A stretch of 64,000 bases of DNA, taken from assembly GCA_965552055.1 (NCBI GenBank), contig CBEVQO010000005.1:13373-77372 (forward strand). Reading direction: 5' to 3'. The first letter of the stretch is position 1; each line of letters starts with the position of its first letter. This DNA is from an uncultured bacterium. GTDB lineage: Bacteria; Hydrothermota; UBA3073; NMUJ01; CBEVQO01. The notes beneath the pieces were generated by a model. That model saw only the letters and a program-made list of their open reading frames with translations. It did no database searches and had not been told where the DNA came from. The translations under genes and the position numbers were made by a program. Below, in pieces: positions 12,042 through 58,438 of the stretch.

Positions 12042-12043
12042 AA

Positions 12044-19261: not shown

Positions 19262-20818
<1,557 letters not shown>

Positions 20819-20851
20819 TTTCTCTCCGGGCAGCACACTTTATTTTTTTAT

Positions 20852-20923
<72 letters not shown>

Positions 20924-20924
20924 T

Positions 20925-20996
20925 GGGGATGTAGCTCAGTGGGAGAGCGCCTGCTTTGCAAGCAGGAGGTCAGGGGTTCGAATCCCCTCATCTCCA
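20925..20996 (+). tRNA. tRNA-Ala (anticodon TGC)
   Basis: Acceptor GGGGAUG/CAUCUCC with G3:U70, anticodon loop UUUGCAA, T-loop GGTTCGAAT. Separated from tRNA-Ile by 1 nt. CCA not encoded. Confidence 0.9.
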
Positions 20997-21040
20997 TGGG
21001 AAGCGATTTAGTTCTTTGACAATCAAGGCAGATGAGCATC

Positions 21041-24047
<3,007 letters not shown>

Positions 24048-24087
24048 GATGCTCATCTGCCTACTTTGTAATTAACCTGTTTTTAAC

Positions 24088-40768: not shown

Positions 40769-40798
40769 GATTTAATTCAGAAAGAGAAAGGGAGTGTT

Positions 40799-43141
40799 AT
40801 GAAGAAGTGTGTTTTAATACTATGTGTATTTTGGGGTCTATTAATGGCTAATGCCGATGCTGAGAAATGGGTTGTGGATACTTCTGGTGTAGAGGGCGAA
40901 TCTTTACAGGTGGCGATAGATAAAGCATGGAATGACCCTGGAATTGATACTGTAGTGGTTAAAAACGGGAAATATCATCTTGCTATAAATGGCGATACGG
41001 GTTTAATAATGCGAGATTCTGTTGTATTGATAAGCGAAGGTGGTGCGTACAAATGCACACTTACAGCAATAAAAGAAGATTTCAGTGACACTGCATGGCA
41101 TGTGATTTTTTGTGATACAAGTGGCTTCAAAGATACTGCATCTCATGCAGCACTGATAAAAGGTTTTACAATAAAAGATGGCAAGACAGAGTTCGGTTCT
41201 CCACCGCACAACCAAGGTGGAGGCATTTTCTTATACAGGGCTTCTCCTGTTATTGAATCATGCAATATTGTTTACAATACCGCCTACAATGGAGCAGGCA
41301 TTTACATTGAATATGCTTCACCTATATTGAGGGATAACATAATAGCGCATAATTATGCTTACTATTTTTGCGGAGGCGTTCATATTGCTGACCATTCCTC
41401 ACCTTATTTAAGCGGTAACATTATAAAAGATAACTCGGGATATTATGCAGGTGGTATTTGCATTATAGGTTATTCAAGACCTGAATTGTGCAATAATATT
41501 ATAGAAAAGAATTGGGCGGGTGCTCTTGGTGCGGGCATTTATATCCTTGCTTCTTCTTCAGCAACTCTAAATAATAACATTATTAAAAACAATCATGCCG
41601 ATTATAAAGGAGGCGGTATTTGCATTTTGCAAAATTCTTCCGCGATATTAAGGGCTAGCATTATAAAGGGCAATAGTGTTTATCACCATGGTGGTGCTTT
41701 ATGCATAGGTAAAAATTCTTGGTGTGTGCTTTCGAATAATGTTATTATCGATAATAAAGCTCGTGATTATGGTGGATGTGTTTTTATTTGTGATAATGCT
41801 TCTCTTTTGATGAAAAATTGTGTTATTGCGATGAACAAAGCACTGGAAGGCGGGGTAATATTTGAAAGTTGTTCAAGCAAAACTGTAATTGATTCGTGTT
41901 TTATAATTGATAATGGCAGTCATTCTTCGCGCACGGGTCTTGCATTCATTGATAGCACTGCGGATTCAGGTGTGACATTTAAAATTTCAAATTCAAATGT
42001 TTATTATAATACCTATCAGCCCGATACCGAGATTTATAACTTATCGAGTGTTATGATAGATTTAAAGAACAATTTCTGGTGGGATACAACCGATAGTGAA
42101 ATATCATCATTGATTTACGGCTTAAATGACCATTCTAACTGGCGAAAAGATTTTGTGTCTGGTGTGCCAGGTGAGCCTCTTCAAGTTGATTCTGTAAAAG
42201 TGTATATTGATTCGATGTATTCTGAATTAGCCGATAACATATGGGAACCATGCACCCTTTATTTGAGATTATTCGGCAGAGATAGATTAAGGAATGTGAA
42301 AGAAATAGCCATTGCCATCGTTAAGACATCCATTTACCAGGTAGGGATTGCTGTTAGTTTGTTAGAAACGGATACTTCATCTGGAATATACGAGGGTGAA
42401 ATTTATGTGAAGGAAGTTACAGGAAAGGATACCATTCAAACTGATGATATTTATCAAAGAATAAAGGTTGATTCAATATGGGATACGATAATTGTTTTTC
42501 CTAACATTGATGTTACAAAGAGATACCGTGTAATTTACAAAGGTCCTGATATTGATGTATCTTATAAGAATTATGATTTTGGAAGTATAAATGTTGGAGA
42601 TAGTGCTGATTTTGAATTTTACTGCATGAATAAAGGTATTGCGAATCTTATAATTGATAGTGCAAAAGTAGATTCACCTTTCTTTGTAGTTTCTCCTGTA
42701 TTACCTTGCAGTATCGGGAGTGGTGATAGTGTAAAAATGGTTGTAAGATTTATCCCGCGTGATACGGGCAACTATACGGATACACTTAAAATTTATTCCA
42801 ATGACCCGAATGAACAGGTGATTTATATTTTGCTATCAGGTAGCGCTGTTTCGCCTTTTGTAAAAGAAATAAAACCTGTTAGATTCGAATTTAAAGGCGT
42901 GACCCCCAATCCTTTATGCAATCACGGTAAAATTCATTATGCTGTTCCTGAGAAATCGCACATTAATATAAGAATATATGATGTCACCGGTAGATTCATC
43001 AAAGAAATTATCAATGAAGAAAGTTCACCTGGCTTTTATGATGTTGAATTCAAAATTAATTTACCGGAAGGCGTTTACTTCATCGTAATGGAAGCTGACA
43101 AATTCAAATCGATTCGCAAATTTCTGGTAATAAAATGGTGA
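40799..43141 (+). CDS. Secreted right-handed parallel beta-helix repeat protein with T9SS C-terminal sorting domain
   Basis: Signal peptide; more than 8 repeats of ~23 aa of the form NNII.(D/N)N...GGGI.I.; Ig-like module (YDFGSINVGDSADFEF); tail RIYDVTGRFIKEI...GVYFIVMEADKFKSIRKFLVIKW. Confidence 0.6.
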   Translation: MKKCVLILCVFWGLLMANADAEKWVVDTSGVEGESLQVAIDKAWNDPGIDTVVVKNGKYHLAINGDTGLIMRDSVVLISEGGAYKCTLTAIKEDFSDTAWHVIFCDTSGFKDTASHAALIKGFTIKDGKTEFGSPPHNQGGGIFLYRASPVIESCNIVYNTAYNGAGIYIEYASPILRDNIIAHNYAYYFCGGVHIADHSSPYLSGNIIKDNSGYYAGGICIIGYSRPELCNNIIEKNWAGALGAGIYILASSSATLNNNIIKNNHADYKGGGICILQNSSAILRASIIKGNSVYHHGGALCIGKNSWCVLSNNVIIDNKARDYGGCVFICDNASLLMKNCVIAMNKALEGGVIFESCSSKTVIDSCFIIDNGSHSSRTGLAFIDSTADSGVTFKISNSNVYYNTYQPDTEIYNLSSVMIDLKNNFWWDTTDSEISSLIYGLNDHSNWRKDFVSGVPGEPLQVDSVKVYIDSMYSELADNIWEPCTLYLRLFGRDRLRNVKEIAIAIVKTSIYQVGIAVSLLETDTSSGIYEGEIYVKEVTGKDTIQTDDIYQRIKVDSIWDTIIVFPNIDVTKRYRVIYKGPDIDVSYKNYDFGSINVGDSADFEFYCMNKGIANLIIDSAKVDSPFFVVSPVLPCSIGSGDSVKMVVRFIPRDTGNYTDTLKIYSNDPNEQVIYILLSGSAVSPFVKEIKPVRFEFKGVTPNPLCNHGKIHYAVPEKSHINIRIYDVTGRFIKEIINEESSPGFYDVEFKINLPEGVYFIVMEADKFKSIRKFLVIKW

Positions 43142-43172
43142 TAAAAATTGATAAAAATTTTTAATTTTTAGC

Positions 43173-43199
43173 TTGACAAAGTCAAAATTTGATTAAAAT
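43173..43199 (+). promoter_or_regulatory. sigma70-like promoter (TTGACA-N15-TAAAAT) for the giant surface-protein gene
   Basis: agcTTGACAaagtcaaaatttgatTAAAAT, then SD AGGAGG at 43206-43211 and ATG at 43217. Confidence 0.5.
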
Positions 43200-43216
43200 A
43201 GATAAAGGAGGTTGTT

Positions 43217-46200
43217 ATGAGGTGGTTAATTTTTATGTTTTTAACTGCAAATCTGTGGGGGGCTGAATACTGGTGGAGGATTGAGGTCGTTGATTCTGGG
43301 GTTCAGCGTGGTCAATATACAAGTGTTGTTCTTGATGATAGTGGTAGACCCTGGATTTCTTATTATGATGCCAATAATGGGTGGTTGATGTGTGCGCACT
43401 GGACAGGGACTGCATGGGATATTGATACGGTTGATGATAGTGGCAATGTTGGTATGTATTCGAATATTGCTCTTGATAAAGCAGGTTATCCTCATATCGT
43501 TTACTTTGATGATGGGAATACAAGGTTAAAGCATGCGTGGTGGACTGGTGCTTTTTGGAAAACAGAGACCGTGAATGACCCTAACTCAAATGATTATGGA
43601 TACTGGTGCGATATTGCTATAGATTCTTTAAATCGCATCTGGGTATCGTACTATGATGCTGATAACAAAAGGCTTATGTGTGCACGCAAAGTAGGAGCTG
43701 TGTGGGATACTATTTATATCGTAGTTGAAGCATTTGGACCTCCGGTCGGGGAATACTCATCAATTTGTATTGATACATCTAATAATCCCCATATATCCTA
43801 TTATCATCAGATTAATGGGTTATCTCATGCATGGTGGGATGGTTCAAAATGGCAGGCTCAGCAGGTTGATTTTGCAGGCGGTTATTACACAAGCATAATT
43901 GCAAGCGAATGTGATACACTGCATATATCTTATTACAATCCTTCTTCGCGGGATTTAAAATATGCGAAAGGTTATTATTCTTCGGGTAGCTGGGGATGGA
44001 CGACGCAGGTAGTTGATACACAGGGAGATGTTGGCAAATGGACGAGCATAGCTGTCTGTGGAAATTCACCTCATATATCCTATTATGATGCTACAAATTT
44101 ATGTCTCAAATATGCACATTTTGAGAATGGTAGCTGGGAGATAGAAGTTGTTGATTCGCCGAAAGTCGGTGAATACACATCAATTGCACTTGATACAAAT
44201 GGCTTACCCTGTATATCCTATTATGACGGAGGTAGTGAATGGCTTAAATTTGCAAGATTGCTTATAAGACCAGAGGTTGATTCAACTTCACCTCTTCATA
44301 ATGAAGTTAATGTATCGCGTGCAACTCAGATAAATGTCTGGTTCTCAAAGGATATTGAATCTGCAACAATAAATAGTGCGAGTTTTAAAGTAATTGGTTC
44401 ACAATCGGGTGAAAGGAAGGGCACGATAACTTACGATTCTAATGAACGCAAAGCAACTTTTACATTGAATGCAGGTGAAACTTTCTATACCGGTGAGAAG
44501 GTGACAGTAATTTTAACAGATTCTATTAAGTCAGTGGATGGTGCACCACTTGTGCCTTATGTGTTTGAATTTACGATAAAGGCAGCCGAAGGGATTGCAG
44601 AGTTTAGTAATGAGGTAAGGTATAGTGTATTGGGTACGCCTGTTGATATAGAGGTTTGTGACCTTGACCTTGATGGTGACCCAGACATTGTTACGCTTTC
44701 ACAGGATACGATAATGATATGGCGTAATGATGTTGATAGTCTGGTACCTGTGGATACTATTCCCTCGCCTTCTTCACAGTACTGCATTGCGATATTAGAC
44801 CTTGATTTGGATGGTTTACCTGATATTGTGGTTGATTCAACTCCATCGAGTGCTCCTTATAGTATAAAGTTTTACAAAAATCAAGGTGGATTGAATTTCG
44901 CCTGGGGTTTTCGTTGTCAAACTGCTTATGGTGTAACAGATATGTTTGTGTCTGACTTTGATGGAGATGGCGACTTTGATATTGCTGCACTGGAATTAAC
45001 TCAGGTTGAGATTCTTTTAAATGAAGGATTTTTTAATTTTACATCGAGTGATACGATTGACCTTACATTTTCGCACAATAAATTATATGGTGCTGATTAT
45101 AATAATGATGGGTTGATTGACCTTGCTGTTACTGCCGCAGCGGGCACTCCCGGTTATGATGTTCTTGCAAATGAAGGTGAAGGCAAATTTAAGCACATTG
45201 GAACAATAACTTTAAGTCAGGGTGTTAAGGATATTATTGCATCTGATTTCGACAATGATTACAATGCGGATAATGCTTTGACGGGCGATGATACACTTAT
45301 TATTTCAGAAGGCAATGGTGATTTTAGTTTTGCACCGGAAGATGATTATGTTGCTACTGGTTCAAATTTTCTTACTTCCGGTGATTTTGATGCAGATGGT
45401 GATATAGACCTTGCGGTTAGTGGGAATGTTACAGGTGGTGATACTTTATTTATATTTTTGAATGATAATGCTAGTTTTGATTCTGTTCACAAATTTTCTG
45501 CAACTGCGATAGAAAGAATTGTGAGTGCAGATTTTAACCTTGATAGCACAATTGATATTGCATCTATTCATTCTGGTGGAATATTATCAATATTTTACAA
45601 TACGCCCGATACATTTCCACCTCCGCCTCCTGAAAGTTTAACTGCAAATGGTGGTTCTCCCTCTCCATGGGATTCCAGTGCTCGATTTGTAATTGACTGG
45701 ATAAATCCTAATGACCCATCGGGGATACTTTTTGCCAATTATAAGATAGGTTCGAGACCTGTGAGTGACTGGGATACAACAGGTCATATGTCTGCACCGT
45801 ATACTCATCCCAAAGATACGATTTACTGGAAAGGGGAAGGGATAGATACATTGTGGGTGTGGCTTGTTGATGGTAACCTTAACACCTCGAAAGATTCTGT
45901 TTCATTTGTGCTTTTAAGAAGGGATACAACACCTCCTCCTGAGCCACAAAAGATTTCTCCATCTGATGGAATATGGGTTGATAGTGCAAGGATAAAATTT
46001 ATGTGGCATTCTGTTGTTGATTCTCTATCAGGGACAATGAGTTATGGGATAGTGCTTGAATATGATGATGTAATAGGTCCTCCTTATATTAGAACAGCGG
46101 GCGATTTGAGTGGCACAACTTACTTTTATACATGTCCTGAGACTGCTGTTTACTGGAGAGTATTTGCAAAGGATTCGGCAACAAACAGGAGTCCGCAATC

Positions 46201-49200
46201 ATTCTGGTGTGTAAAAATAGACACAACTCCTCCAAATAAATTTTATGTTATTTCTCCCGATGGTGTATGGTTGAGGAAACCTCCTTATACATTTATCTGG
46301 CATAGTGCAAAAGACCACTGGTCAGGTGTTGAAAGTTATAAATTGAGAGTGTGGAGAGAAGGTTTTGCTGCTAGCAATTGGTCCGGTATAACTGATACCT
46401 CTTACATTGTGTTTGGTTTGCCTGGTTTTGCCGAAACTACATACTGGTGGTGTGTTATAGCGTATGATTCTGCTGGAAATTATGTGTATAGTGATACAGG
46501 GATTTTCTGGACAGATACTACAATTTTGCCGCCTTCTAATCTCACGATAAATGGTAAAAATCCGAACGACTGGACCAATGATAGTGTATTTACATTGAAC
46601 TGGACAAATCCTTCTGATTATTCCGGTATCGTTAGAGCATTATATAAGATTGGCAATAGACCTTCTTCTGATTATGATACAACTGGTTCTCTCACAGGAA
46701 TTCCTCCTGTAAGTATTATCTGGCGGGATGAAGGTGTAGAAACATTATGGCTGTGGCTCGAAGATAAGGCAGGTAATGTTGATTACACAAAAAATGCATT
46801 TGCAATAATAAGAAGGGATATAACTCCGCCTCAATCTTTTACTCAGATTTCACCTGTAAATAATTTCTGGCTAAATACCATTAATCCTCGCCTTATATGG
46901 CACAGCACTATGGATACTTTGTCGGGCTTGGCTTATTATACGATAAATGTTGATACAGTTCAAACATTTTCAACGAAAATAATTTGTGATACTGTTTCGG
47001 ATACCATTTACAATGCAAATCTATTTGAAGACGCGTTTTACTGGTATGTTGAGGCATGGGATTCTGCTGGTAATGTATGTTCTACTTTTGTGTGGAATTT
47101 CAAAATAGATACAACCCATCCTCCCAAACCTGTTTTAATATCTCCTCCTGATGGCTCATGGAACGGCAAATATGCTCATTTTGTATGGCATAAAGTTGAA
47201 GATTACTGGTCTGGTCTAGCTGCTTATCGCTTAAACATTGATACGAATGCTTTGATGCCAAATCCTCTGACATTTTCACTTACAGATACAGAGACAACAA
47301 TTGTGCTTACTCATGAAGGCAAAACTTATTACTGGATGGTGGAAGCTGAAGATTCGGCATTTAATATATCGCAAAGTTTGGTATGGACTTTCAAACTTGA
47401 CACAACAGTTCTTGCACCGATTAATTTAATTGCAAATGATAGTTCTCCGTCACCGTGGCAAAGGAGTTCTATGTTTGTTATTAACTGGCAAAATCCATCT
47501 GATTCCGCTGGAATAAAGTTTGCATTATACAAACTTGGCACAGGACCCAGTAATAACTGGGATACCACAGGTACGATGCATTTACCACCCGATACGATTT
47601 ACTGGCAGGGCGAGGGCAAAGAAACTTTATGGGTATGGCTTTGCGATAGTGCAGGCAATGTTAATTACCATAATCGCTCTTTTGTGTTGTTAAGAAGAGA
47701 TACAACTCCTCCTTTTGCATTTTCAAAAATAAGACCCCAGGATAATGCGTGGATAAGGGTTGTTAAGCCTTCTCTTATCTGGCATAGCACTCAAGATTCT
47801 CTATCGGGTCTGAGGATTTATCGTGTTGCTGTAGATAAAGATATGACTCCTCCTTTTATGATTGATTTTGTTTTGCGAGGTACTCTATATGTTACACCCC
47901 ATTTACCTGAGACGATACTTTACTGGGCAGTCGTAGCAGTTGATTCTGCAGGTAACTTTAAAGAAGCTGATGCGGATACAAAAGTATGGTGGAAGATGAA
48001 AATAGATACAACTCCTCCTGATACAGTCCATCCAGTTTATCCTGTATCTAATCAATGGACGAGAGGTGGATTTATGTGGCGTAGTGCTAAAGATTACTGG
48101 TCAGGGATTAGATTTTATCATTTTGTGATAGATACAGTTTATCCATTCACTCCCAGTCCCATAAAGGATACAGTTTGCAGGGATACCGTGATATTTATCA
48201 AAGGACTTTCTGAGCGGAATTATTACTGGAAAGTTGTAGCATTAGATTCTGCTTTTAATGGAGGTGCTGGTGTTGTTCATCAATGTCGAGTTGATACCAC
48301 GCCACCGGATAGCGTTAAATTAATCTCTCCTGAGAACCTTTCTTACACGAATGATATACATTCTGTATTTACATGGGATACAGGCTATGATGCGCGTTCA
48401 GGTGTTATGGGCTATATTTTCTGGGATTCTTCACTTGCATATGGTGAAAAAATTGATACTCTTATCTTAGGCGTATTTAACACATCTTATAAGCCTTTAA
48501 AAGGTTTAAAGGAGGGCTGGCATTGCTGGGCAGTTGTAGCAATGGATTCAGCCTACAATGTTAGTGATGGTCATTATCCTTATTCTGTGCATTTGTTATG
48601 TGTGGATACTACTCCTCCTGAGTCCGCAATTGCAACTTCGCCTCTTTATGTTGATAGCCTTGTATTTGTTGTGCAATGGAGTAAAGGTAAAGATACTTTA
48701 TCGGGCATCACAGATACTTATAAATTGAGATATTCTACAGATTTAGTTTCATGGTATGATACGGCTGTTACGGGTACCGCATTTATTTTCAAAGGAGAAG
48801 ACCAGACAAAATATTACTTTGAGGTGCTTTCTCGGGATTATGCTGGCAATTTTGAGCGCATCACAGGAGTGCCTGAATGCTCAACCTATGTTGATACTAC
48901 ACCGCCTCAGCAGGTTCAGTTAATCTCACCTGAAGGCTGGATTAAAGAATTATCACCTGTTTTAATATGGCACAAAGCAAATGACTTTACAGGGATAGCA
49001 GAATATTATGTGCAGCTAAGTAAAGATATGGGTTTCGATACCATTATTTTTTCGGATACCGTTGCAGATACATTTGCGGTGGTAGGTTTAAATTTAATGG
49101 AAAATGTTAAGTACTACTGGCGAGTTAGGGCAAAAGACAACGCAGGCAATGTAAACATGTGGTCAGGTTATAATATGTTTAAAGTGGATACATCATCGCC

Positions 49201-51430
49201 GCAAATACCTGAACTTGTAAGTCCTCTAAATGATACTCCAGTAACAACGGTTGATGATACTTTGACACTTATATGGAGGGCATCTTACGATGAGCTTTCT
49301 GGTATTTATGCTTATCAGGTGCAGATAAGCGAAGTTCCTGATTTCTCATCGCTTATACTTGATACTATTTTGTATCATCCTGATACTATATTGAGGTATC
49401 CAAGAGAATTAAATGAAATTAAGCATTATTGGCGAGTATTTGCGATAGATAGTGTCTGGAATGTTAGCGATGGACATAAAGGGACATTTATGGTTGACAA
49501 TACCGCGCCTGTACTTGTTCATAAGTATCCTGACCTGAATGACACGGTTGACCCGCGTATAAAAATAGAAATTGCATTTTCTGAAAAAGTAGACCCCAAA
49601 ACGGTTGATACTCTCTCCTTCTGTTTATATATGGAAGCAGAAAAAGTGAGAGGAAATGTTTATCAACATCCAGCTATAGAGACATTGTTTTACTTTGAGC
49701 CTAAAGAAAATCTTGAACCCAACACCAAATATCTTGTTGTTGTTTCAACAAAAGATAAAAAAGTTAAAGATATTGCAGGTAATAAGATGTCGATGGTGAG
49801 CTGGAGTTTTTACACTGCAGGCAGTGCTGATAATATGCCTCCGGATGTTAAGGAAATAAAAACTTATCCCGAAGTTACTTATGGTGCGCCTTATGTAGTT
49901 ATAAAAGCATTGCTAAAGGATGATATTTCGCGCATTAAATATGCTGAATATTTCGTTGATTCAGTGGGTTCACCTGGTACGGGCGATGCAATGATGCCAC
50001 TCGATGGTGCGTTTGATAGCAAAGAAGAGTGGGTGATAGATACTCTATTCACTAAAGATTATAGTGGCACTTTGAGGATATTTATTCAGGGTAAGGATGA
50101 ATGGGACAACTGGAGTGATGCAGTTAAATCGAAGATAATAGTATGTCCTCCCGATACAATACCTCCGCTTTTTGATATAATGGTTAATGGAAGCCGAGAA
50201 GATACACTTCAGGTGACAGATACTATTGTAGTGAGAACTAAATCTTCGGAAATTATAAATCCCGATTATCCCGTAGTATGCACTTTGAAATACAATTCCA
50301 CAGTTATTGCACAAACTATGAAGAGAGAAGATAGTGTTACCTATACTGTGCAATTTGTAATTACACATCCTCCTTTGACAGAATATGATGTTAAAGTGCT
50401 TGGTTACGATTATGGATGGCATTGGGATACTTTGAAGGATAGCATTGTAAGTATGCCAAATCTCGGTGTCAACGAAAAGCATTTTATACTTTATGACTTT
50501 GAATCACCCAGTATAATCTCATTTACATTAAAACCAGAGACCCTTGAAATAACGGATAAACTAAATGTGGAGATTACAATAAAAGATAATTATGAGCTTA
50601 AAGAAGTTAGATTTTATTTTGACTCCGACACCGTACCTGTGGAAACGATTTCATTGAGTGGCAGGGATACTTCTTTAACAACGAACATACCTGTTAGTGG
50701 TTTGACTCCTGCCTCTTCCCATATATTGCGTGCCCTTGCATCTGATATATGTGATAATATTAGCCCTGAAGTTTCTGCTGGCTTTTATATCAGAGAACTC
50801 GATGTCATACCACCTGTTTTGATGCTTCAGAGACCGGATACATTTTATCTTGGAGATTCCGTTTTAATAGTAGCAATCGCGAGCGAGAAATTGTCAAGAG
50901 ATTCAATTCCGGTTTGTTTGATAAAAGGCTTAAGAGGTAATGATACTTTGATAGATACTTTAAAGATGACTTTTGTGGATGATTCTACCTGTCAGACGAA
51001 ATACAGGGTTCAGGGTTTAAATCTGGGAGTTGCTTACATTGATGTATATGCTTATGATGAAGCAGGCAACCTTGGACTCGTTGAAGATTCGGTTTACATC
51101 AGTAAGAGAGGAAGATTATTTGACCCAAGGAGAGATGTGTTCCCGTTTCCTAATCCTGTTAGAAAATCCAACGAGGTGTATTTCCATATTTATGTGAATC
51201 AAAATGCCTATGTTGATATAAGAATTTATACGATAGAAGGTCGTCTTGTTAAGAGATTAGAAAGAATATTTGTAGAAGGAGGTCGTCCGAAATACAGCTG
51301 GGAGGCAAATGTAATTAAGGTTGACATTTCTAAATTAAAAACAGGATTATATTATGCCAAGATTACGATAAGGAGTCTGGATGGGAAAGAAAAACAGAGT
51401 TGCACCAAGAGATTTGTGGTGATAAAGTAA
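43217..51430 (+). CDS. Giant (2737 aa) modular secreted surface protein: N-terminal propeller-like repeats, FG-GAP/VCBS-like repeats, at least ten Ig/FN3-like modules, T9SS C-terminal sorting domain
   Basis: Signal peptide; about seven ~45-aa repeats (G.YTSIALD..G.PHISYYD....LKYA); DxDxDG repeats (DLDLDGDPDIV, DFDGDGDFDIA, DFDADGDIDLA); ~100-aa modules separated by (K/R)(I/V)DTTPP linkers, each with YW.V.A.D.AGN; tail FPFPNPV...IRIYTIEGRLV...KRFVVIK. Confidence 0.75.
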   Translation: MRWLIFMFLTANLWGAEYWWRIEVVDSGVQRGQYTSVVLDDSGRPWISYYDANNGWLMCAHWTGTAWDIDTVDDSGNVGMYSNIALDKAGYPHIVYFDDGNTRLKHAWWTGAFWKTETVNDPNSNDYGYWCDIAIDSLNRIWVSYYDADNKRLMCARKVGAVWDTIYIVVEAFGPPVGEYSSICIDTSNNPHISYYHQINGLSHAWWDGSKWQAQQVDFAGGYYTSIIASECDTLHISYYNPSSRDLKYAKGYYSSGSWGWTTQVVDTQGDVGKWTSIAVCGNSPHISYYDATNLCLKYAHFENGSWEIEVVDSPKVGEYTSIALDTNGLPCISYYDGGSEWLKFARLLIRPEVDSTSPLHNEVNVSRATQINVWFSKDIESATINSASFKVIGSQSGERKGTITYDSNERKATFTLNAGETFYTGEKVTVILTDSIKSVDGAPLVPYVFEFTIKAAEGIAEFSNEVRYSVLGTPVDIEVCDLDLDGDPDIVTLSQDTIMIWRNDVDSLVPVDTIPSPSSQYCIAILDLDLDGLPDIVVDSTPSSAPYSIKFYKNQGGLNFAWGFRCQTAYGVTDMFVSDFDGDGDFDIAALELTQVEILLNEGFFNFTSSDTIDLTFSHNKLYGADYNNDGLIDLAVTAAAGTPGYDVLANEGEGKFKHIGTITLSQGVKDIIASDFDNDYNADNALTGDDTLIISEGNGDFSFAPEDDYVATGSNFLTSGDFDADGDIDLAVSGNVTGGDTLFIFLNDNASFDSVHKFSATAIERIVSADFNLDSTIDIASIHSGGILSIFYNTPDTFPPPPPESLTANGGSPSPWDSSARFVIDWINPNDPSGILFANYKIGSRPVSDWDTTGHMSAPYTHPKDTIYWKGEGIDTLWVWLVDGNLNTSKDSVSFVLLRRDTTPPPEPQKISPSDGIWVDSARIKFMWHSVVDSLSGTMSYGIVLEYDDVIGPPYIRTAGDLSGTTYFYTCPETAVYWRVFAKDSATNRSPQSFWCVKIDTTPPNKFYVISPDGVWLRKPPYTFIWHSAKDHWSGVESYKLRVWREGFAASNWSGITDTSYIVFGLPGFAETTYWWCVIAYDSAGNYVYSDTGIFWTDTTILPPSNLTINGKNPNDWTNDSVFTLNWTNPSDYSGIVRALYKIGNRPSSDYDTTGSLTGIPPVSIIWRDEGVETLWLWLEDKAGNVDYTKNAFAIIRRDITPPQSFTQISPVNNFWLNTINPRLIWHSTMDTLSGLAYYTINVDTVQTFSTKIICDTVSDTIYNANLFEDAFYWYVEAWDSAGNVCSTFVWNFKIDTTHPPKPVLISPPDGSWNGKYAHFVWHKVEDYWSGLAAYRLNIDTNALMPNPLTFSLTDTETTIVLTHEGKTYYWMVEAEDSAFNISQSLVWTFKLDTTVLAPINLIANDSSPSPWQRSSMFVINWQNPSDSAGIKFALYKLGTGPSNNWDTTGTMHLPPDTIYWQGEGKETLWVWLCDSAGNVNYHNRSFVLLRRDTTPPFAFSKIRPQDNAWIRVVKPSLIWHSTQDSLSGLRIYRVAVDKDMTPPFMIDFVLRGTLYVTPHLPETILYWAVVAVDSAGNFKEADADTKVWWKMKIDTTPPDTVHPVYPVSNQWTRGGFMWRSAKDYWSGIRFYHFVIDTVYPFTPSPIKDTVCRDTVIFIKGLSERNYYWKVVALDSAFNGGAGVVHQCRVDTTPPDSVKLISPENLSYTNDIHSVFTWDTGYDARSGVMGYIFWDSSLAYGEKIDTLILGVFNTSYKPLKGLKEGWHCWAVVAMDSAYNVSDGHYPYSVHLLCVDTTPPESAIATSPLYVDSLVFVVQWSKGKDTLSGITDTYKLRYSTDLVSWYDTAVTGTAFIFKGEDQTKYYFEVLSRDYAGNFERITGVPECSTYVDTTPPQQVQLISPEGWIKELSPVLIWHKANDFTGIAEYYVQLSKDMGFDTIIFSDTVADTFAVVGLNLMENVKYYWRVRAKDNAGNVNMWSGYNMFKVDTSSPQIPELVSPLNDTPVTTVDDTLTLIWRASYDELSGIYAYQVQISEVPDFSSLILDTILYHPDTILRYPRELNEIKHYWRVFAIDSVWNVSDGHKGTFMVDNTAPVLVHKYPDLNDTVDPRIKIEIAFSEKVDPKTVDTLSFCLYMEAEKVRGNVYQHPAIETLFYFEPKENLEPNTKYLVVVSTKDKKVKDIAGNKMSMVSWSFYTAGSADNMPPDVKEIKTYPEVTYGAPYVVIKALLKDDISRIKYAEYFVDSVGSPGTGDAMMPLDGAFDSKEEWVIDTLFTKDYSGTLRIFIQGKDEWDNWSDAVKSKIIVCPPDTIPPLFDIMVNGSREDTLQVTDTIVVRTKSSEIINPDYPVVCTLKYNSTVIAQTMKREDSVTYTVQFVITHPPLTEYDVKVLGYDYGWHWDTLKDSIVSMPNLGVNEKHFILYDFESPSIISFTLKPETLEITDKLNVEITIKDNYELKEVRFYFDSDTVPVETISLSGRDTSLTTNIPVSGLTPASSHILRALASDICDNISPEVSAGFYIRELDVIPPVLMLQRPDTFYLGDSVLIVAIASEKLSRDSIPVCLIKGLRGNDTLIDTLKMTFVDDSTCQTKYRVQGLNLGVAYIDVYAYDEAGNLGLVEDSVYISKRGRLFDPRRDVFPFPNPVRKSNEVYFHIYVNQNAYVDIRIYTIEGRLVKRLERIFVEGGRPKYSWEANVIKVDISKLKTGLYYAKITIRSLDGKEKQSCTKRFVVIK

Positions 51431-52428
51431 TGTTGAAGCAATTAGAGTACTGGATAAGAAAGGTGATAAGAGAAACAAAAGACCTTGAATTTGACACTCA
51501 CCTGATCGGTGTAAGGACTAAAAAAGAGGATTATCCGAAAGCCATTTTTAATAGGACTTTAAGTGAAGCTGTAAAAAGGAAATATGGTTCAAGGTTTGAC
51601 CCCAAGAATCCCGATGTTCAGATAATATGCGATATTGATAAAGATGAGATAGAATTTTACATAAAGCCTGTCTTCCTTTATGGTAGATACAGAAAACTTG
51701 TGCGTGGTATTCCTCAAACTCGCTGGGATTGTAAGGAATGCGGAGGAAAAGGATGTGAAAAATGTAATTACACAGGCAAAATGTATCCTGAATCTGTAGA
51801 GGAGATAATAGGTGATAAGGTTAAAGAATATTTTAAAGCAGAAGAAATAATTTTGCATGGTTGTGGCAGAGAAGATGTAGATGCGAGGATGCTTGGAAAT
51901 GGCAGACCATTTGTGCTCGAAATAAGAAAACCATGGAAAAGAAGAGTTGATTTGAACAAACTTACAGAAGAAATAAATGATAGTGCAAAAGGGAAAATTG
52001 AAGTTTTATTTTTGCGTTATACTGAGAGGCATGCCGTTAGATTGATAAAAGCGGTTCGTCCAAAGAAAGTTTATCTTGTAAATGTGAAGTTCGAGGAGCG
52101 GGTTGACAAAAGTAAGCTTCTGATGGCACTGGATGAATTAAAAGGTAAGGAGATAGTGCAAAGGACACCGATAAGGGTTCTGCATCGCAGAGCCAATTTA
52201 AAAAGGATAAGAAAAGTTTATGATTGTAAATTGATAGAGTTTAACGATTCTACTGCAAAGATAGAGTTTACATGTGAAAGCGGTATGTATGTTAAAGAGA
52301 TGATTTCAGGTGACTTTGGCAGGACGAAGCCCAGTTTAAGCGAAATACTCGGCGTGCAATGTGAGGTGCAGGAGCTCGATGTAATAGGTGTTGAGAAGAT
52401 TCCGTTAGAAGAATTTGGGTTCCTCTAA
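51430..52428 (+). CDS. tRNA pseudouridine synthase Pus10-like (archaeal/eukaryotic type)
   Basis: Zinc ribbon CKECGGKGCEKCNYTG and block HGCGREDVDARMLGNGRPF resembling the Pus10 catalytic-Asp region. ORF track starts at 51400; the ATG at 51430 (MLKQLEYW) overlaps the giant gene stop as TAATG. Confidence 0.55.
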   Translation: MLKQLEYWIRKVIRETKDLEFDTHLIGVRTKKEDYPKAIFNRTLSEAVKRKYGSRFDPKNPDVQIICDIDKDEIEFYIKPVFLYGRYRKLVRGIPQTRWDCKECGGKGCEKCNYTGKMYPESVEEIIGDKVKEYFKAEEIILHGCGREDVDARMLGNGRPFVLEIRKPWKRRVDLNKLTEEINDSAKGKIEVLFLRYTERHAVRLIKAVRPKKVYLVNVKFEERVDKSKLLMALDELKGKEIVQRTPIRVLHRRANLKRIRKVYDCKLIEFNDSTAKIEFTCESGMYVKEMISGDFGRTKPSLSEILGVQCEVQELDVIGVEKIPLEEFGFL

Positions 52429-53217
52429 AACATAATCCAGTGGATTTTTTGGTACACCGTCATATAAAATTTCATAATGGAGGACAGGTCCCACTGTTAA
52501 TCCTGTTTTGCCGACATATCCGATAATTTGTCCTCTTTTTACTTTATCTCCTTTTTTAACGATAATTTCTTTTAAATGTGAATATTTTGTTTTAAAGCCA
52601 TTGCCGTGATCAATAACAATTGTTTTTCCGAAGAATCTTTTATAACCTGCGAATTCCACTTCTCCTGATGCTGTGGCTATAACAGCTGCCCCTTCTTTAC
52701 ACGCAATATCTATGCCCGTTGAAATACGCGTTTGGTCTGTAAAAATATCCCTTTGATAGCCATAAGTCTTTATAATCCAGCCATCTACAGGTAGAATCGA
52801 TGGAACAGTTTCTGAAAGTTTTTTATCTTTACTGATAATATCTTCAATATGACTTAACAAAAATGAACTTAATCTTACATCCTGATACATTTTGTTAATA
52901 TCCATTGTGAAGACTTCTTTTTTCTTTTTATAATTTGTATAAAAGGATTTTCTTACTTTTTTCGCAAGCGAGAATAATGCTTCCGTTTTTTCCTTTAAGG
53001 AATCAAGTTTCACTTTTAAATTTTGCAGTTTTTCTCTTTTAATTTTTAAATCTTCAATAACTTTTTGCGGTGATTTTCTTACAAACTGTATTTTAAACCC
53101 AATAATAGGCGTCGCAATCATCGCAGATAAAAATATGATCAGTAATATGAAAAGAGGTAGAGGTATCTTTATTTGTCTTATTTTACCTGAATGATGGGGA
53201 ATTATTTTTATAACCAT
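52405..53217 (-). CDS. M23/LytM-domain protein with coiled-coil N-terminus and degenerate active site (EnvC/NlpD-like activator candidate)
   Basis: TM/signal segment, coiled-coil (LKIKREKLQNLKVKLDSLKEKTEAL), M23 domain with VIDHGNGFKTKYSHL but GPVLHYEI where catalytic M23 enzymes have an HxH motif (first His missing). Confidence 0.6.
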   Translation of the reverse strand: MVIKIIPHHSGKIRQIKIPLPLFILLIIFLSAMIATPIIGFKIQFVRKSPQKVIEDLKIKREKLQNLKVKLDSLKEKTEALFSLAKKVRKSFYTNYKKKKEVFTMDINKMYQDVRLSSFLLSHIEDIISKDKKLSETVPSILPVDGWIIKTYGYQRDIFTDQTRISTGIDIACKEGAAVIATASGEVEFAGYKRFFGKTIVIDHGNGFKTKYSHLKEIIVKKGDKVKRGQIIGYVGKTGLTVGPVLHYEILYDGVPKNPLDYVLEEPKFF

Positions 53218-55914: not shown

Positions 55915-56889
55915 TTGTCAAGTAGAAATTTCTTTATTGCCATTTTAATATTCCGAATAAATTTAATGGTGAAAAGATTTTTATTCATGATAATTATTTT
56001 GCTAACCTGTTCGCCACCCAGGGACAACCCCTTTGACCCCAATTCTCCCATTTTTAAATTTGGTTTCTTAAAGGGAAGTGTTAAAAATCATTATCATATT
56101 CCTGTTCCTTATCCCGAAATCTATATTTTAGGTTCACAGAAAGGTTGTGGAGATTCTACGGGTAACTTCTTTTTTAAACTCGAAGAGGATTCCTATAAAG
56201 TCATTTTTTCAAAAAGCGGATATACATCGTCAACTTTATCTGTATGGATTGCATCTAAAGATACTCTTGAGGTCTTTCCCGTTATTGCAGGGATACCTTA
56301 TTTTGAAGAAGTCGGTGTTGCTTCTGAATTTTACAAAGGTACAGCGATTCAACCTGATAGATGTTATCTCACTATAAGAGCGGAAGTCAAAGACCCCGAT
56401 GGATTACAGGATATAGATAGTGTGAAGTGCCTTATACCTGCTGATAATCCATATTATGTAACTCTTTTTCCTTCTGCAGGATACTATGAGGCTACAATAA
56501 AGGGCACGAGTATTGTGACGATAGAAAACTGGGTTGGCAGGACTTTTCGCGCTTATGCAGTAGATAAATGGGGGATTAGGGGTTTTTCTCGTGATTTTAC
56601 ACTTGTAAGAGTTATAAAGGAGACAGCGAATCCTTTATATCCCCAAAATGGTGATTCGGTGGAATCTCCCGTGACCTTTGTGTGGAGAAAGCCGGATGTG
56701 AATTTTAGCATTCATTATCAGCTGATATTATACGAAGAAAACGGTGCAGAGAGAATTTTCGATACAGAAGATACCACAATTACGCTTTCACTTAATCCTT
56801 CACGCTATAGCTATTACATAAGAGCAATAGACGAATTCGGTAATTTCTCACAATCCACTTACACTGTCTTTTATGTTATCTCAAAATGA
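55915..56889 (+). CDS. Hypothetical lipoprotein with Ig-like beta-sandwich regions
   Basis: Probable start at internal Met MVKRFLFMIIILLTCSPP (lipobox LLTC); beta-rich sequence. Confidence 0.45.
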   Translation: MSSRNFFIAILIFRINLMVKRFLFMIIILLTCSPPRDNPFDPNSPIFKFGFLKGSVKNHYHIPVPYPEIYILGSQKGCGDSTGNFFFKLEEDSYKVIFSKSGYTSSTLSVWIASKDTLEVFPVIAGIPYFEEVGVASEFYKGTAIQPDRCYLTIRAEVKDPDGLQDIDSVKCLIPADNPYYVTLFPSAGYYEATIKGTSIVTIENWVGRTFRAYAVDKWGIRGFSRDFTLVRVIKETANPLYPQNGDSVESPVTFVWRKPDVNFSIHYQLILYEENGAERIFDTEDTTITLSLNPSRYSYYIRAIDEFGNFSQSTYTVFYVISK

Positions 56890-58438
56890 TGAGCTTTTCT
56901 ACTCTATTATCCTGAGTTCTTACAAAGTAAATTCCCTCTTTAAGATTTGAAATACGAATAATCCCTGACTCATTTTTCAAAGAGCATATTTTTCTGCCTG
57001 TTATGTCGAATATTTCAATATTGCCTTTATAATTTATTTTTATGTAATCTTTTGCGGGATTTGGTATTAATTTTAATTTTGAAATCTTATTTTTATTTTC
57101 ATAGGTTGCTACTACTCCTTCGTTTATAACAACAGGTATCGATTCGTCGAAAGTTGCTGCGAAAACAGTATCACTGATAAAATCAGGTGTATTCCCGTAA
57201 ATTTTGTATAAGCCCGGAGTTAAACCGGTGAGATAAAAATTACCATAGGGGTCAGAGAGCGTAGTTTTCACACTTTTAGAGTTTCTGGCGATTATAATGC
57301 CTATCTTCTGTATCTTACAATAAGAAAGTTTTCCGTAAAGTGTAAAATACCCTGTTTTGCTTCTATTAAGTTTAAAGTTAATGTTCGAAGCCGATGATGA
57401 GAATTTAATCGCTTCCTGAAAATTAAAAGTGGATGGATAAAGTACACCTGTATGATTTTTTGCGAAGCAATAAAGATAAACTTCACCATGTAATCCGCTT
57501 AATCTGTAAAATCCATCACGATTTGTGATCGCACAATAGAACTTTGAGTTTTCATCAAATGCAAATACAAAAGCAGGATAAATTGGTGCACTGTCTTCTA
57601 CATAGCCTTCGATTGAAAAGCCTGTATTAACACTATCAAAAGTAAGTATAAGTGATGTATCGTTTTTGAGAAAAATGCTATCTATCGATGGTAGATAACC
57701 ATTTGCTACCGCTAATATCTTGTAGTTACCCTCAGGTAATAATAGAGTGTCCGTTATATCAACTTTTTTAATGGTGCAATATGTTTTTGATGCTATAAAA
57801 ACATAAGCTGAGCAATTTGTTGTTAGAGTTAAATTCAATAAGTTTGAAGGTTGCCTATATATTTCGATGTAGTAGTTTTCATCGGGTGCGAGATGTAAGT
57901 TTTCTATTTTGTTGATTATAAGGCCTTTGTAAAATGCTTCGAGTGTATAATGTGAGATTTTGCTTGTGTCCGGTGGTATATTATCGATGATGAACTCACC
58001 ATTTTCATCCGTTGATGCTGTTCCTACCGTATAAAGGTCGTTAAATTTTAATATTAAAGTTGCATCTTTTAAAGGTGTGGAATCCGTGTCCATTACTTTT
58101 CCGCTTATAGTAGCCGGATGCCAGTCGGGATTAGGCGATAGATTAAAATTTACATCTGTTATTTCACCTGTGATGATTATTTCAACGGCATCCTCAGGGA
58201 AATCCGCATTATACCACCACTGGGGGAAATATCCTCCTTTTTCTGCGTAAACATAAACGGTTTCCCCTGCTCTTAGACCGCTGAATTTATATCTCCCATC
58301 AGGAAAAGTATATGTCCATTTGTAAGGATATAAAGGTGCATCGAAAGCATTTTTTAATAGCAGTACGATAGAAAAATTCAAAGGTTCTCCATTACTTTCT
58401 ACTCTGCCAGTAAGTAATATTCCGATTAAAAAAATCAT
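56876..58438 (-). CDS. Secreted protein with carboxypeptidase-regulatory-like domains and T9SS C-terminal sorting domain
   Basis: Signal peptide; repeated CarboxypepD_reg-like modules (ISGKVMDTDSTPLKDATLIL...TDENGEFIID; GYVEDSAPIYPAFVFAFDENS...TNRDGFYRLSGL); tail LIPNPAKDYIKINYKGNIEIFDITGRKI...GIYFVRTQDNRVEKLIILR. Confidence 0.55.
   Translation of the reverse strand: MIFLIGILLTGRVESNGEPLNFSIVLLLKNAFDAPLYPYKWTYTFPDGRYKFSGLRAGETVYVYAEKGGYFPQWWYNADFPEDAVEIIITGEITDVNFNLSPNPDWHPATISGKVMDTDSTPLKDATLILKFNDLYTVGTASTDENGEFIIDNIPPDTSKISHYTLEAFYKGLIINKIENLHLAPDENYYIEIYRQPSNLLNLTLTTNCSAYVFIASKTYCTIKKVDITDTLLLPEGNYKILAVANGYLPSIDSIFLKNDTSLILTFDSVNTGFSIEGYVEDSAPIYPAFVFAFDENSKFYCAITNRDGFYRLSGLHGEVYLYCFAKNHTGVLYPSTFNFQEAIKFSSSASNINFKLNRSKTGYFTLYGKLSYCKIQKIGIIIARNSKSVKTTLSDPYGNFYLTGLTPGLYKIYGNTPDFISDTVFAATFDESIPVVINEGVVATYENKNKISKLKLIPNPAKDYIKINYKGNIEIFDITGRKICSLKNESGIIRISNLKEGIYFVRTQDNRVEKLIILR

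What the first reader, a model, noticed from the sequence alone, without database searches (positions are those of the whole stretch)
51400..52428. Archaeal/eukaryotic-type Pus10-like pseudouridine synthase in a bacterium, start overlapping the giant gene stop (TAATG)
The protein has a Cys4 zinc ribbon (CKECGGKGCEKC) and the block HGCGREDVDARMLGNGRPF, which matches my recollection of the Pus10 catalytic-Asp region. Pus10 is the archaeal and eukaryotic tRNA Psi54/55 synthase, whereas bacteria normally use TruB. If confirmed, this is a likely inter-domain transfer. Its probable ATG (51430) shares a nucleotide with the stop of the 8.2-kb gene, which is an odd coupling between a highly expressed surface protein and a tRNA-modification enzyme.
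Basis: partly seen in the sequence, partly recalled or inferred. Interest (0 to 1): 0.5.

Follow-up and report, generated by a model that had tools for sequence, protein, structure and literature searches.

The report
Archaeal-type Pus10 in a WOR-3 bacterium
A bacterium of the uncultured WOR-3 group carries a working-looking, shortened copy of Pus10, a tRNA-modifying enzyme that reviews say exists only in archaea and eukaryotes, so it was most likely acquired from an archaeon.

Summary

It is not an assembly artefact. The giant gene -> pus10 <- M23 arrangement recurs on independently assembled contigs, including a second species at 83% nt identity. dN/dS is 0.04, and GC and codon usage match the host.

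All other homologues found are archaeal, at most about 50% identical. The bacterial pair nests among them in NJ trees, with the donor unresolved.

- The Cys4 motif is the forefinger-loop cluster of the catalytic domain, not Pus10's N-terminal zinc motif. That motif is missing, along with 17 aa of the THUMP region.
- The TAATG overlap is strain-specific. Other strains have TAA, 1-2 nt, then GTG.

All 15 mapped MjPus10 residues are kept except two: R231 is Gly and I412 is Val. The likely function is tRNA Psi55, possibly also Psi54.

I could not test whether truB is present. The result is moderately interesting.

The parts
51430..52428 (+). pus10-like CDS, 332 aa plus stop. A Pus10-family pseudouridine synthase lacking the N-terminal Zn motif.
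51430..51669 (+). aa 1-80: reduced THUMP-like accessory domain. It starts just after the position of the second CxxC of archaeal Pus10 and has a 17-aa internal deletion.
51730..51765 (+). aa 101-112, CKECGGKGCEKC: the Cys4 cluster of the forefinger-loop region (MjPus10 C227/C230/C235/C238; ffl1 and the start of ffl2).
   Evidence: Mapping through Methanocaldococcus homologue P0466, where all 19 published MjPus10 residues match at a constant offset of 16. Nearly invariant in archaeal homologues. Role in Psi54 formation: PMC3753934.
51856..51912 (+). aa 143-161, HGCGREDVDARMLGNGRPF: catalytic motif. D149 (nt 51874-51876) is the catalytic Asp, equivalent to MjPus10 D275 and, by my numbering, human D344.
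   Evidence: Invariant columns in A1, A2 and A3. Mapping. Alignment to 2v9k. D275A abolishes all activity (PMC3753934).
52159..52215 (+). aa 244-262, QRTPIRVLHRRANLKRIRK: thumb loop, including the H252/R253 'hook' (MjPus10 H376/R377).
   Evidence: Invariant Q244, T246, P247, R249, H252, R253, R254 and R259 (R249 to R259). Mapping. Functional data: PMC3753934.
51428..51432 (+). TAATG junction: the stop of the 2737-aa T9SS cargo gene overlaps the pus10 start by 1 nt.
   Evidence: Orthologous junctions are TAA-AA-GTG (L024, L003) and TAA-A-GTG (L001).
52405..52428 (.). 24-nt overlap of the 3' ends of pus10 (+) and the convergent M23 peptidase gene (-). It encodes a lineage-specific Pus10 C-terminal tail, IPLEEFGFL.
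   Evidence: The same arrangement occurs in L001, L002, L003 and L024.
43217..51430 (+). Context: upstream 2737-aa gene with FG-GAP, Big_5 and a T9SS C-terminal sorting domain. Probably co-transcribed with pus10.
   Evidence: Pfam. Synteny conserved in all related contigs.
52405..53217 (-). Context: convergent M23 peptidase gene, followed by sigma-70 and HtrA genes on the minus strand.
   Evidence: Pfam. Synteny.

Best explanation
The gene encodes a functional, horizontally acquired, archaeal-type Pus10 pseudouridine synthase in a WOR-3/Stahlbacteria-like bacterium.

History (inferred). An ancestor of at least two sampled species took up an archaeal, euryarchaeote-like pus10. The gene lost the N-terminal Zn-binding module and a helical segment of the THUMP region. 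Its composition drifted to match the host. It now sits directly behind a giant T9SS cargo gene, with which it is probably co-transcribed.

Mechanism (inferred from the family). The reduced THUMP domain plus the catalytic domain bind the tRNA T-arm. The thumb and forefinger loops clamp it. U55, and possibly also U54, is flipped into the active site and isomerised to pseudouridine through the catalytic Asp149.

What is shown here: family membership, fold, bacterial context, conservation of the mapped residues (two substitutions), purifying selection, and position within archaeal sequences.

What is inferred: the actual substrate and position (54, 55 or both), and whether the enzyme replaces or supplements TruB, TrmA or TrmFO.
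For: Family and fold:
- TIGR01213 399.7 bits against cutoff 200.
- Pus10_C 3.4e-70.
- AF2 pLDDT 93.3, pTM 0.86.
- Foldseek to 2v9k: E 9e-29, TMq 0.80.

Active-site integrity. All 19 MjPus10 residues studied by Joardar et al. (PMC3753934) map at a constant offset through P0466. The 15 outside the N-terminal Zn motif have window counterparts: C101, C104, G105 (for R231), C109, C112, V123, R147, D149, D151, Y215, H252, R253, V288 (for I412), K289 and L316.

Bacterial host:
- Bacterial SSU and LSU rRNA.
- Sigma-70, M23 peptidase, HtrA and T9SS CTD proteins.
- Ddl, Pst/PhoU and DXS.
- DXS best named hits are Stahlbacteria and WOR-3.

Not an artefact:
- The exact protein is on record on four contigs read plus one JGI contig. 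I inspected three of these, from NCBI, Logan and JGI. An ENA contig from a second species carries a 91%-aa / 83%-nt orthologue. All four inspected contigs show the same synteny.
- GC is 37.3% against 38.1% for the window.
- Codon-usage distance ranks 15th of 39 genes.

Selection: dN 0.059, dS 1.44, dN/dS 0.041.

Archaeal origin:
- Only one 90%-identity cluster (three 332-aa sequences) is close. The next hits are about 50% identical, and all named ones are archaeal except one misbinned contig.
- The scan of 185,579 species genomes returned 20 confirmed relatives, all archaeal.
- In NJ trees the bacterial pair is monophyletic at 100% and sits among archaeal sequences. Its sister is euryarchaeotal P0011 at 54-62% bootstrap.
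- P0011 lies in the archaeal Pus10-L21e-RpoF-KsgA cluster.

Plausibility of activity without the N-terminus (PMC3753934):
- A 17-mer T-arm is a sufficient substrate for MjPus10.
- The C106A/C109A Zn-motif mutant keeps both activities.
- MjPus10 modifies E. coli tRNAs in vivo.
Against: - No biochemical or RNA-modification data exist for this organism.
- The N-terminal Zn motif and 17 aa of the THUMP region are missing. A 2025 review (PMC12710931) says the Zn cysteines and basic THUMP residues matter for Psi54 formation, so specificity, and perhaps tRNA affinity, may differ from characterised Pus10.
- The donor lineage is unresolved. Deep nodes have under 20% bootstrap, and I used NJ only, with no ML tree.
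- The source genome is not in the GTDB-representative collection searched. Host taxonomy therefore rests on one marker protein (DXS) and on gene content.
- Whether truB, trmA, trmFO or trmY are present in the genome is unknown.
Confidence: 0.7

Rival explanations
1. Non-orthologous displacement. Pus10 has replaced TruB as the only tRNA Psi55 synthase in this lineage, and works as a Psi55-only enzyme because the Zn/THUMP elements that support Psi54 formation were lost. This is a specific sub-case of the best explanation.
For: - Strong purifying selection, dN/dS 0.041, and 91% aa identity between species. That is as high as the neighbouring M23 peptidase (93%) and higher than the giant gene (77%), which fits an indispensable housekeeping role.
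- Zn cysteines and THUMP basic residues are reported as important for Psi54 but not Psi55 (PMC12710931).
- No truB in the 64-kb window.
Against: - The window is only a small part of the genome, so the absence of truB there says almost nothing.
- The forefinger loop (ffl1/ffl2), Y215 and the H252/R253 hook are all retained. These are the determinants whose loss makes Pyrococcus Pus10 Psi55-only (PMC3753934).
Confidence: 0.3
2. Addition rather than replacement. The bacterium keeps TruB, and Pus10 installs Psi54, giving an archaeal-type Psi54-Psi55 T-loop in place of m5U54.
For: - All MjPus10 Psi54 determinants in the catalytic domain are conserved.
- MjPus10 expressed in E. coli makes Psi54 and outcompetes native TrmA (PMC3753934).
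- The closest archaeal relatives come from lineages with full-length, presumably dual-specificity enzymes.
Against: - Loss of the N-terminal Zn motif reduces Psi54 formation in vitro in MjPus10 (PMC3753934), and it is reported as crucial for Psi54 (PMC12710931).
- No trmY-like gene is in the window.
- No modification data exist.
Confidence: 0.3
3. Retargeted enzyme. The truncated protein no longer acts on tRNA positions 54/55. It either pseudouridylates another RNA with a T-loop-like motif (rRNA, tmRNA, mRNA) or acts mainly as an RNA-binding or chaperone protein.
For: - The accessory domain, which is thought to position tRNA, is heavily reduced.
- Human PUS10 has a catalysis-independent RNA-binding role in miRNA processing (PMC9957541).
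- The unusual linkage to a T9SS cargo gene gives no functional hint.
Against: - The catalytic Asp and every mapped RNA-clamping element are conserved under strong purifying selection.
- The THUMP core fold is still predicted.
- A T-arm minihelix alone is a substrate for archaeal Pus10 (PMC3753934).
- Zn-less short forms recur in archaeal contexts.
Confidence: 0.12
4. Artefact or junk. The gene is an assembly or binning chimera of an archaeal fragment into a bacterial contig, or a decaying, non-functional remnant.
For: - MAG-derived Pus10 with a bacterial label can be an artefact. The 'Thermotoga sp.' Pus10 P0015 lies next to L21e and Rpb4, so it is a misbinned archaeal contig.
- The N-terminal truncation could look like decay.
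Against: - The same junctions on both sides occur in independent assemblies from four sources and in a second species.
- The gene abuts or overlaps bacterial genes at both ends.
- GC and codon usage are host-like.
- The ORF is intact in all copies, with dN/dS 0.041.
Confidence: 0.02

Closest known systems
Archaeal Pus10 (tRNA pseudouridine 54/55 synthase; COG1258, TIGR01213), e.g. Methanocaldococcus jannaschii and Pyrococcus furiosus Pus10
   Same: - Passes the curated equivalog model.
- 45-54% identity across the THUMP and catalytic regions.
- Identical catalytic motif GREDxDxRMLGxGRPF.
- Cys4 forefinger cluster, thumb-loop HRR and Y215 / K289 / L316 equivalents are all present.
- Predicted fold agrees.
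   Different: - It is encoded in a bacterium.
- It lacks the first ~70-110 residues, which carry the CxxC...CxxC Zn motif (Mj C31/34/106/109), and a further 17 aa inside the THUMP region.
- It has a short extra C-terminal tail.
- It is not in the archaeal Pus10-L21e-RpoF neighbourhood. It lies behind a T9SS cargo gene instead.
Human PUS10 (PDB 2v9k)
   Different: - The human enzyme has a much larger N-terminal accessory domain with a Zn site.
- It lacks the Cys4 cluster in the forefinger region: the aligned segment is WIIDGERKLES.
Bacterial TruB (tRNA Psi55 synthase)
   Different: - A different family: Pfam TruB_N scores only 15.4 bits against a cutoff of 27.3.
- TruB has a PUA domain rather than THUMP, no forefinger loop, and makes no Psi54 (PMC3753934).
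Short, Zn-motif-less Pus10 variants in metagenomic archaea (e.g. P0339, P0428, P0278)
   Same: Same reduced architecture: no N-terminal CxxC pair and a shortened THUMP segment. It occurs in 32 of the other 182 diverse representatives examined. The catalytic residues are conserved.
   Different: - Where the gene context is informative, these are archaeal: diphthamide synthase next to P0339; MCM and PvlArgDC near P0428.
- They are scattered in the tree and are not sister to the bacterial pair, so the reductions appear to be independent.

Membership tests
Pus10 (TIGR01213 / COG1258 / Pfam Pus10_C) | Scores above the curated family threshold of the sequence models | tested here: met
   TIGR01213 399.7 bits (cutoff 200), E 1.3e-119. 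Pus10_C 236.6 bits (cutoff 27) over model positions 1-232 of 232.
Pus10 (TIGR01213 / COG1258 / Pfam Pus10_C) | Psi-synthase catalytic domain with the conserved catalytic Asp in GREDxD, the conserved Tyr, and Lys/hydrophobic core residues | tested here: met
   R147, D149, D151, Y215, V288, K289 and L316 correspond to MjPus10 R273, D275, D277, Y339, I412, K413 and L440. These columns are invariant or nearly so in A1-A3.
Pus10 (TIGR01213 / COG1258 / Pfam Pus10_C) | Thumb and forefinger loops flanking the active site | tested here: met
   Forefinger segment C101-V123 is full length, covering ffl1 and ffl2. The thumb loop carries H252/R253.
Pus10 (TIGR01213 / COG1258 / Pfam Pus10_C) | N-terminal THUMP-containing accessory domain | tested here: inconclusive
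Pus10 (TIGR01213 / COG1258 / Pfam Pus10_C) | N-terminal Cys4 Zn-binding motif (Mj C31/C34/C106/C109; seen in the human PUS10 structure) | tested here: not met
   The protein begins just after the column of the second CxxC. All 24 archaeal sequences in A1 have these cysteines. No convincing remnant lies upstream or elsewhere in the window.
Pus10 (TIGR01213 / COG1258 / Pfam Pus10_C) | Overall three-dimensional fold of Pus10 | tested here: met
Pus10 (TIGR01213 / COG1258 / Pfam Pus10_C) | Catalyses Psi55 (and Psi54) formation in tRNA | not testable with these tools
   Needs enzymology, complementation or Psi mapping.
TruB family (bacterial Psi55 synthase) | TruB_N catalytic domain above threshold, with a PUA domain | tested here: not met
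   TruB_N 15.4 bits against cutoff 27.3, with no stretch passing on its own. Cbf5 models score 38-41 bits against cutoffs near 240.
Inter-domain horizontal gene transfer (archaea to bacteria) | The recipient context is truly bacterial and reproducible | tested here: met
   rRNA and marker genes. The same synteny appears on the four inspected contigs, from four sources and two species.
Inter-domain horizontal gene transfer (archaea to bacteria) | The gene nests phylogenetically within the donor domain and is patchy in the recipient domain | tested here: met
   The bacterial pair sits among archaeal sequences in NJ trees rooted on human PUS10. The pair has 100% bootstrap; its sister P0011 has 54-62%. 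No other bacterial homologue appeared in 5.8 billion proteins or 185,579 genomes. The specific donor clade is unresolved.

The most novel reading that the evidence does not exclude
This WOR-3 lineage is the first bacterium whose tRNA T-loop is modified the archaeal way. A minimal, Zn-motif-less Pus10 would have displaced TruB, and perhaps TrmA/TrmFO too, and would make Psi55 and Psi54. That would show that the Zn-THUMP accessory module is dispensable in vivo, and that the 'Bacteria use TruB/T54, Archaea use Pus10/Psi54' rule can be crossed.
Probability: 0.25. Interest if true: 0.65.

Novelty: new variant of a known kind. Interest (0 to 1): 0.45.

Why it matters
Reviews up to 2025 state that Pus10 is present in Archaea and some Eukarya but absent from Bacteria (PMC7912444, PMC9957541, PMC12710931, PMC5682645). 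This locus is a well-supported counter-example: a selected, host-adapted Pus10 fixed in a bacterial lineage.

Two questions become directly testable:
- Can TruB, the bacterial Psi55 synthase, be displaced or supplemented by the archaeal enzyme in nature?
- Is the N-terminal Zn/THUMP module needed for Pus10 function? Nature has here produced a 332-aa minimal version.

It also gives a caution for annotation. Another 'bacterial' Pus10 in NCBI, labelled Thermotoga sp., is a misbinned archaeal contig.

The scope is limited. This is one gene in a narrow, uncultured lineage, and inter-domain transfer of tRNA-modification genes has precedents, such as the RlmD-derived TrmU54 of Thermococcales (PMC3753934).

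Tried and rejected
1. Assembly chimera. Rejected: identical junctions recur in independent assemblies and in a second species, and composition is host-like.

2. Remnant of the lost N-terminus upstream of the ATG. tblastn alignments ran 20-60 nt upstream in frame, with an 'ICGD' resembling the second CxxC. However, that frame has stops in L001 and L024. An HMM of the archaeal N-terminal region found nothing significant anywhere in the window (best E 0.06, elsewhere). That DNA also encodes the T9SS CTD of the giant gene. I treat the resemblance as chance.

3. N-terminal module encoded as a separate gene ('split Pus10'). An archaeal short form (L031) has a 135-aa Zn-ribbon ORF 2 nt upstream. hhalign against the Pus10 alignment shows no homology (probability 1%). 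No such ORF exists in the window.

4. The short forms as a single clade that donated the gene. Rejected: they are scattered in the NJ tree, and the nearest relative, P0011, is full length.

5. Other bacterial Pus10s. P0015, labelled 'Thermotoga', is archaeal by context. The profile search returned only archaeal names. The genome scan returned only archaea.

6. An internal sigma-70 promoter at 51321-51350. It is not conserved in L001, and the number of promoter-like sites is not above the shuffled expectation.

7. Reaching the rest of the genome to look for truB. Look-ups of the edge genes on the 180-kb contig failed. The afdb50 fold library was unavailable.

8. An 'empty site' in relatives. 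Only one distant syntenic locus turned up (L034; sigma 62%, M23 41% identity). There a queA-like ORF follows M23, with no pus10 in the 182 nt available. This is suggestive only.

9. Sample provenance. Literature searches for the sample accessions found nothing.


Full report
**Observation.** The window has an ORF at 51400..52428 (+). Read from the ATG at 51430 it gives 332 aa. It contains CKECGGKGCEKC (aa 101-112) and HGCGREDVDARMLGNGRPF (aa 143-161). The upstream 2737-aa ORF (43217..51430) ends in TAA at 51428-51430, which shares one base with the ATG, so the TAATG overlap is real. At its 3' end the gene overlaps the convergent M23 peptidase gene (52405..53217, minus strand) by 24 nt.

**What the protein is.**
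- Pfam gives Pus10_C at 3.4e-70 over the whole 232-position model. The archaeal Pus10 THUMP model matches only at positions 47-78 of 78.
- NCBIfam's equivalog TIGR01213 (tRNA pseudouridine(54/55) synthase Pus10) scores 399.7 bits against a cutoff of 200. Only model positions 110-402 of 402 are matched.
- The best solved-structure relative by sequence is human PUS10 (2v9k, 4e-36). Cbf5 and TruB are far weaker, around 4e-4.
- An AlphaFold2 model built on alignment A1 is confident: pLDDT 93.3, pTM 0.86.

**Is the host a bacterium?** Yes.
- The window carries a bacterial 16S - tRNA-Ile - tRNA-Ala - 23S operon.
- It encodes sigma-70 factors, an M23 peptidase, HtrA, D-Ala-D-Ala ligase, Pst/PhoU, RnfC, DXS, and several proteins with the type IX secretion C-terminal sorting domain.
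- The best named relatives of its DXS are from Candidatus Stahlbacteria and candidate division WOR-3, at 60-65% identity.

**Is the gene really in that genome?**
- The exact protein is on record on four contigs read plus one JGI contig. I inspected three of them: NCBI GCA_964419125.1, Logan SRR7051321 and JGI 3300022470.
- A 91%-aa / 83%-nt orthologue lies on an ENA contig from a second species.
- All four inspected contigs show the same order: giant T9SS gene, then pus10, then convergent M23.
- The gene's GC content (37.3%) matches the window (38.1%). Its synonymous codon usage ranks 15th of 39 window genes by distance from the pool.
- Between the two species dN = 0.059 and dS = 1.44, so dN/dS = 0.041.
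- Pus10 is as conserved as the neighbouring M23 peptidase (91% against 93% aa identity) and more conserved than the giant gene (77%).

This rules out a chimeric assembly and a decaying pseudogene. The acquisition predates the split of the two species.

**Origin.**
- Among 5.8 billion proteins, the only close relatives are three 332-aa sequences in one 90% cluster. Identity then drops to about 50%. Every named hit is archaeal: Methanophagales/ANME-1, Alkanophagales, Syntropharchaeia, Archaeoglobi, Thermoplasmata, Methanococci and others.
- One hit is labelled 'Thermotoga sp.'. It lies beside ribosomal protein L21e and RNA polymerase subunit Rpb4/RpoF, so it is a misbinned archaeal contig.
- A scan of one genome for each of 185,579 species returned 20 relatives, all archaeal. 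The source genome itself is not in that collection.
- In neighbour-joining trees rooted on human PUS10, the two bacterial sequences form a 100%-supported pair among archaeal sequences. Their sister is a full-length Euryarchaeota MAG protein (P0011), with 54-62% bootstrap. Deeper nodes are unresolved.
- P0011 lies in the typical archaeal NUDIX-Pus10-L21e-RpoF-DUF655-KsgA neighbourhood. None of that neighbourhood accompanies the bacterial gene.

Together with the literature statement that Pus10 is absent from Bacteria (PMC7912444, PMC9957541, PMC12710931, PMC5682645), this supports an archaeon-to-bacterium transfer. The donor clade cannot be named from these data.

**Anatomy and the two corrections.**
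- Alignment with 24 archaeal homologues (A1) shows that the bacterial protein starts immediately after the second CxxC of the archaeal N-terminal Zn motif. It also lacks 17 residues inside the THUMP region.
- I mapped the MjPus10 residues studied by Joardar et al. (PMC3753934) through the Methanocaldococcus homologue P0466. All 19 published residues match it at a constant offset of 16.
- The four N-terminal Zn cysteines (Mj C31/34/106/109) have no counterpart in the bacterial protein.
That is the forefinger-loop region (ffl1/ffl2) of the catalytic domain.
- The other mapped residues have counterparts: R147, D149 (catalytic), D151, Y215, H252/R253 (thumb 'hook'), V288 (Ile in Mj), K289 and L316. 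G105 replaces Mj R231.
- The junction with the giant gene varies: TAATG here, TAA-AA-GTG in near-identical strains, and TAA-A-GTG in the second species. Close abutment is conserved, but the overlap is not.
- A sigma-70-like site at 51321-51350 is not conserved. Co-transcription with the giant gene is therefore the simplest reading (inference). Nothing indicates that the giant gene is highly expressed.

**Is the short architecture unique?** No.
- An exhaustive search of 1.84 billion cluster representatives found 2550 Pus10 relatives at E up to 0.001.
- Of 185 diverse sequences I aligned, 34 lack any N-terminal CxxC, the two bacterial sequences among them. Most of these 34 have a shortened THUMP segment.
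- The informative contexts I could examine are archaeal: diphthamide synthase next to P0339, and MCM and PvlArgDC near P0428. Others are ambiguous.
- The short forms are scattered in the tree. Loss of the Zn module appears to have happened repeatedly, and the bacterial case is one more instance.
- A Zn-ribbon ORF just upstream of one archaeal short form shows no homology to the Pus10 N-terminus. I found no evidence for split genes.

**Mechanism.** Established knowledge of the family comes from PMC3753934, PMC7912444 and PMC9957541:
- In enzymes with a full forefinger loop and the H/R hook, it also isomerises U54.
- A 17-mer T-arm is a sufficient substrate.
- The C106A/C109A Zn-motif mutant keeps both activities, with reduced Psi54 in vitro.
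- MjPus10 modifies E. coli tRNAs in vivo and outcompetes TrmA.

Because the bacterial protein keeps these catalytic-domain determinants under strong purifying selection, the most likely function is tRNA Psi55 synthesis, with Psi54 possible. Against Psi54, a 2025 review reports that the Zn cysteines and basic THUMP residues matter for Psi54 (PMC12710931).

Whether the enzyme replaces TruB or works beside it cannot be decided here. truB is not among the 41 window ORFs scanned with Pfam. Attempts to reach more of the 180-kb source contig failed.

**Verdict.** This is a real, selected, horizontally acquired Pus10-family enzyme in a WOR-3-type bacterium. It lacks the family's N-terminal Zn motif. 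It contradicts a repeated textbook statement and makes TruB displacement and the dispensability of the accessory module testable. It remains a single-gene transfer of a known enzyme family in a narrow lineage. Interest is moderate (0.45), and I rate the novelty as a new variant of a known kind.

Noticed in passing
window 19266-24049: Bacterial rRNA operon: 16S, tRNA-Ile(GAT), tRNA-Ala(TGC), 23S. No 5S rRNA reached the Rfam gathering threshold anywhere in the window, so the 5S gene seems unlinked or divergent.
   Followed up: no
window 11340-13312: An MvaI/BcnI-family restriction endonuclease gene followed directly by an N4/N6 DNA methylase gene. This is a probable type II restriction-modification pair.
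   Followed up: no
window 13319-15751 (-): An 810-aa Lon-like protease with LonB-like AAA, 'archaeal LonB LID' and LonC helical Pfam domains. It may be another gene with archaeal affinities in this genome.
   Followed up: no
window 38087-51430 and 56876-58438: A run of large secreted proteins with T9SS C-terminal sorting domains, also carrying transglutaminase, beta-helix, FG-GAP and Big_5 domains. The 2737-aa giant gene directly upstream of pus10 is one of them.
   Followed up: partly
L025 (JGI 3300014914 Ga0164311_10032827) 583-2591: A Pus10 labelled 'MAG: Thermotoga sp.' in NCBI lies next to ribosomal protein L21e and Rpb4/RpoF. The contig is archaeal and the bacterial label is a binning error.
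   Followed up: yes
L031 1105-2470 (NCBI GCA_054010715.1): In an archaeal contig (MCM and PvlArgDC nearby), a short 318-aa Pus10 is preceded at 2 nt by a 135-aa ZPR1-like Zn-ribbon ORF. hhalign finds no homology to the Pus10 N-terminus (probability 1%), so a split gene is not supported.
   Followed up: yes
representatives (e.g. P0250, P0267, P0278, P0339, P0428): About a fifth of diverse Pus10 representatives (34 of 185) lack the N-terminal Zn motif and have a shortened THUMP segment. They are scattered across the tree. I did not come across this 'mini-Pus10' class in the papers consulted.
   Followed up: partly
L034 (Ga0180300_10063508) 1340-1529: In a distant relative with conserved sigma-70 / M23 synteny (62% and 41% identity), a queA-like ORF (MLVKEFDYDLPKELIAQYP...) follows M23 in the same direction. 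There is no convergent pus10 within the 182 nt available.
   Followed up: partly
window 52402-52428: The bacterial Pus10 proteins carry a C-terminal tail (IPLEEFGFL) absent from archaeal homologues. It is encoded by the stretch that overlaps the 3' end of the M23 gene, and model confidence drops there.
   Followed up: no
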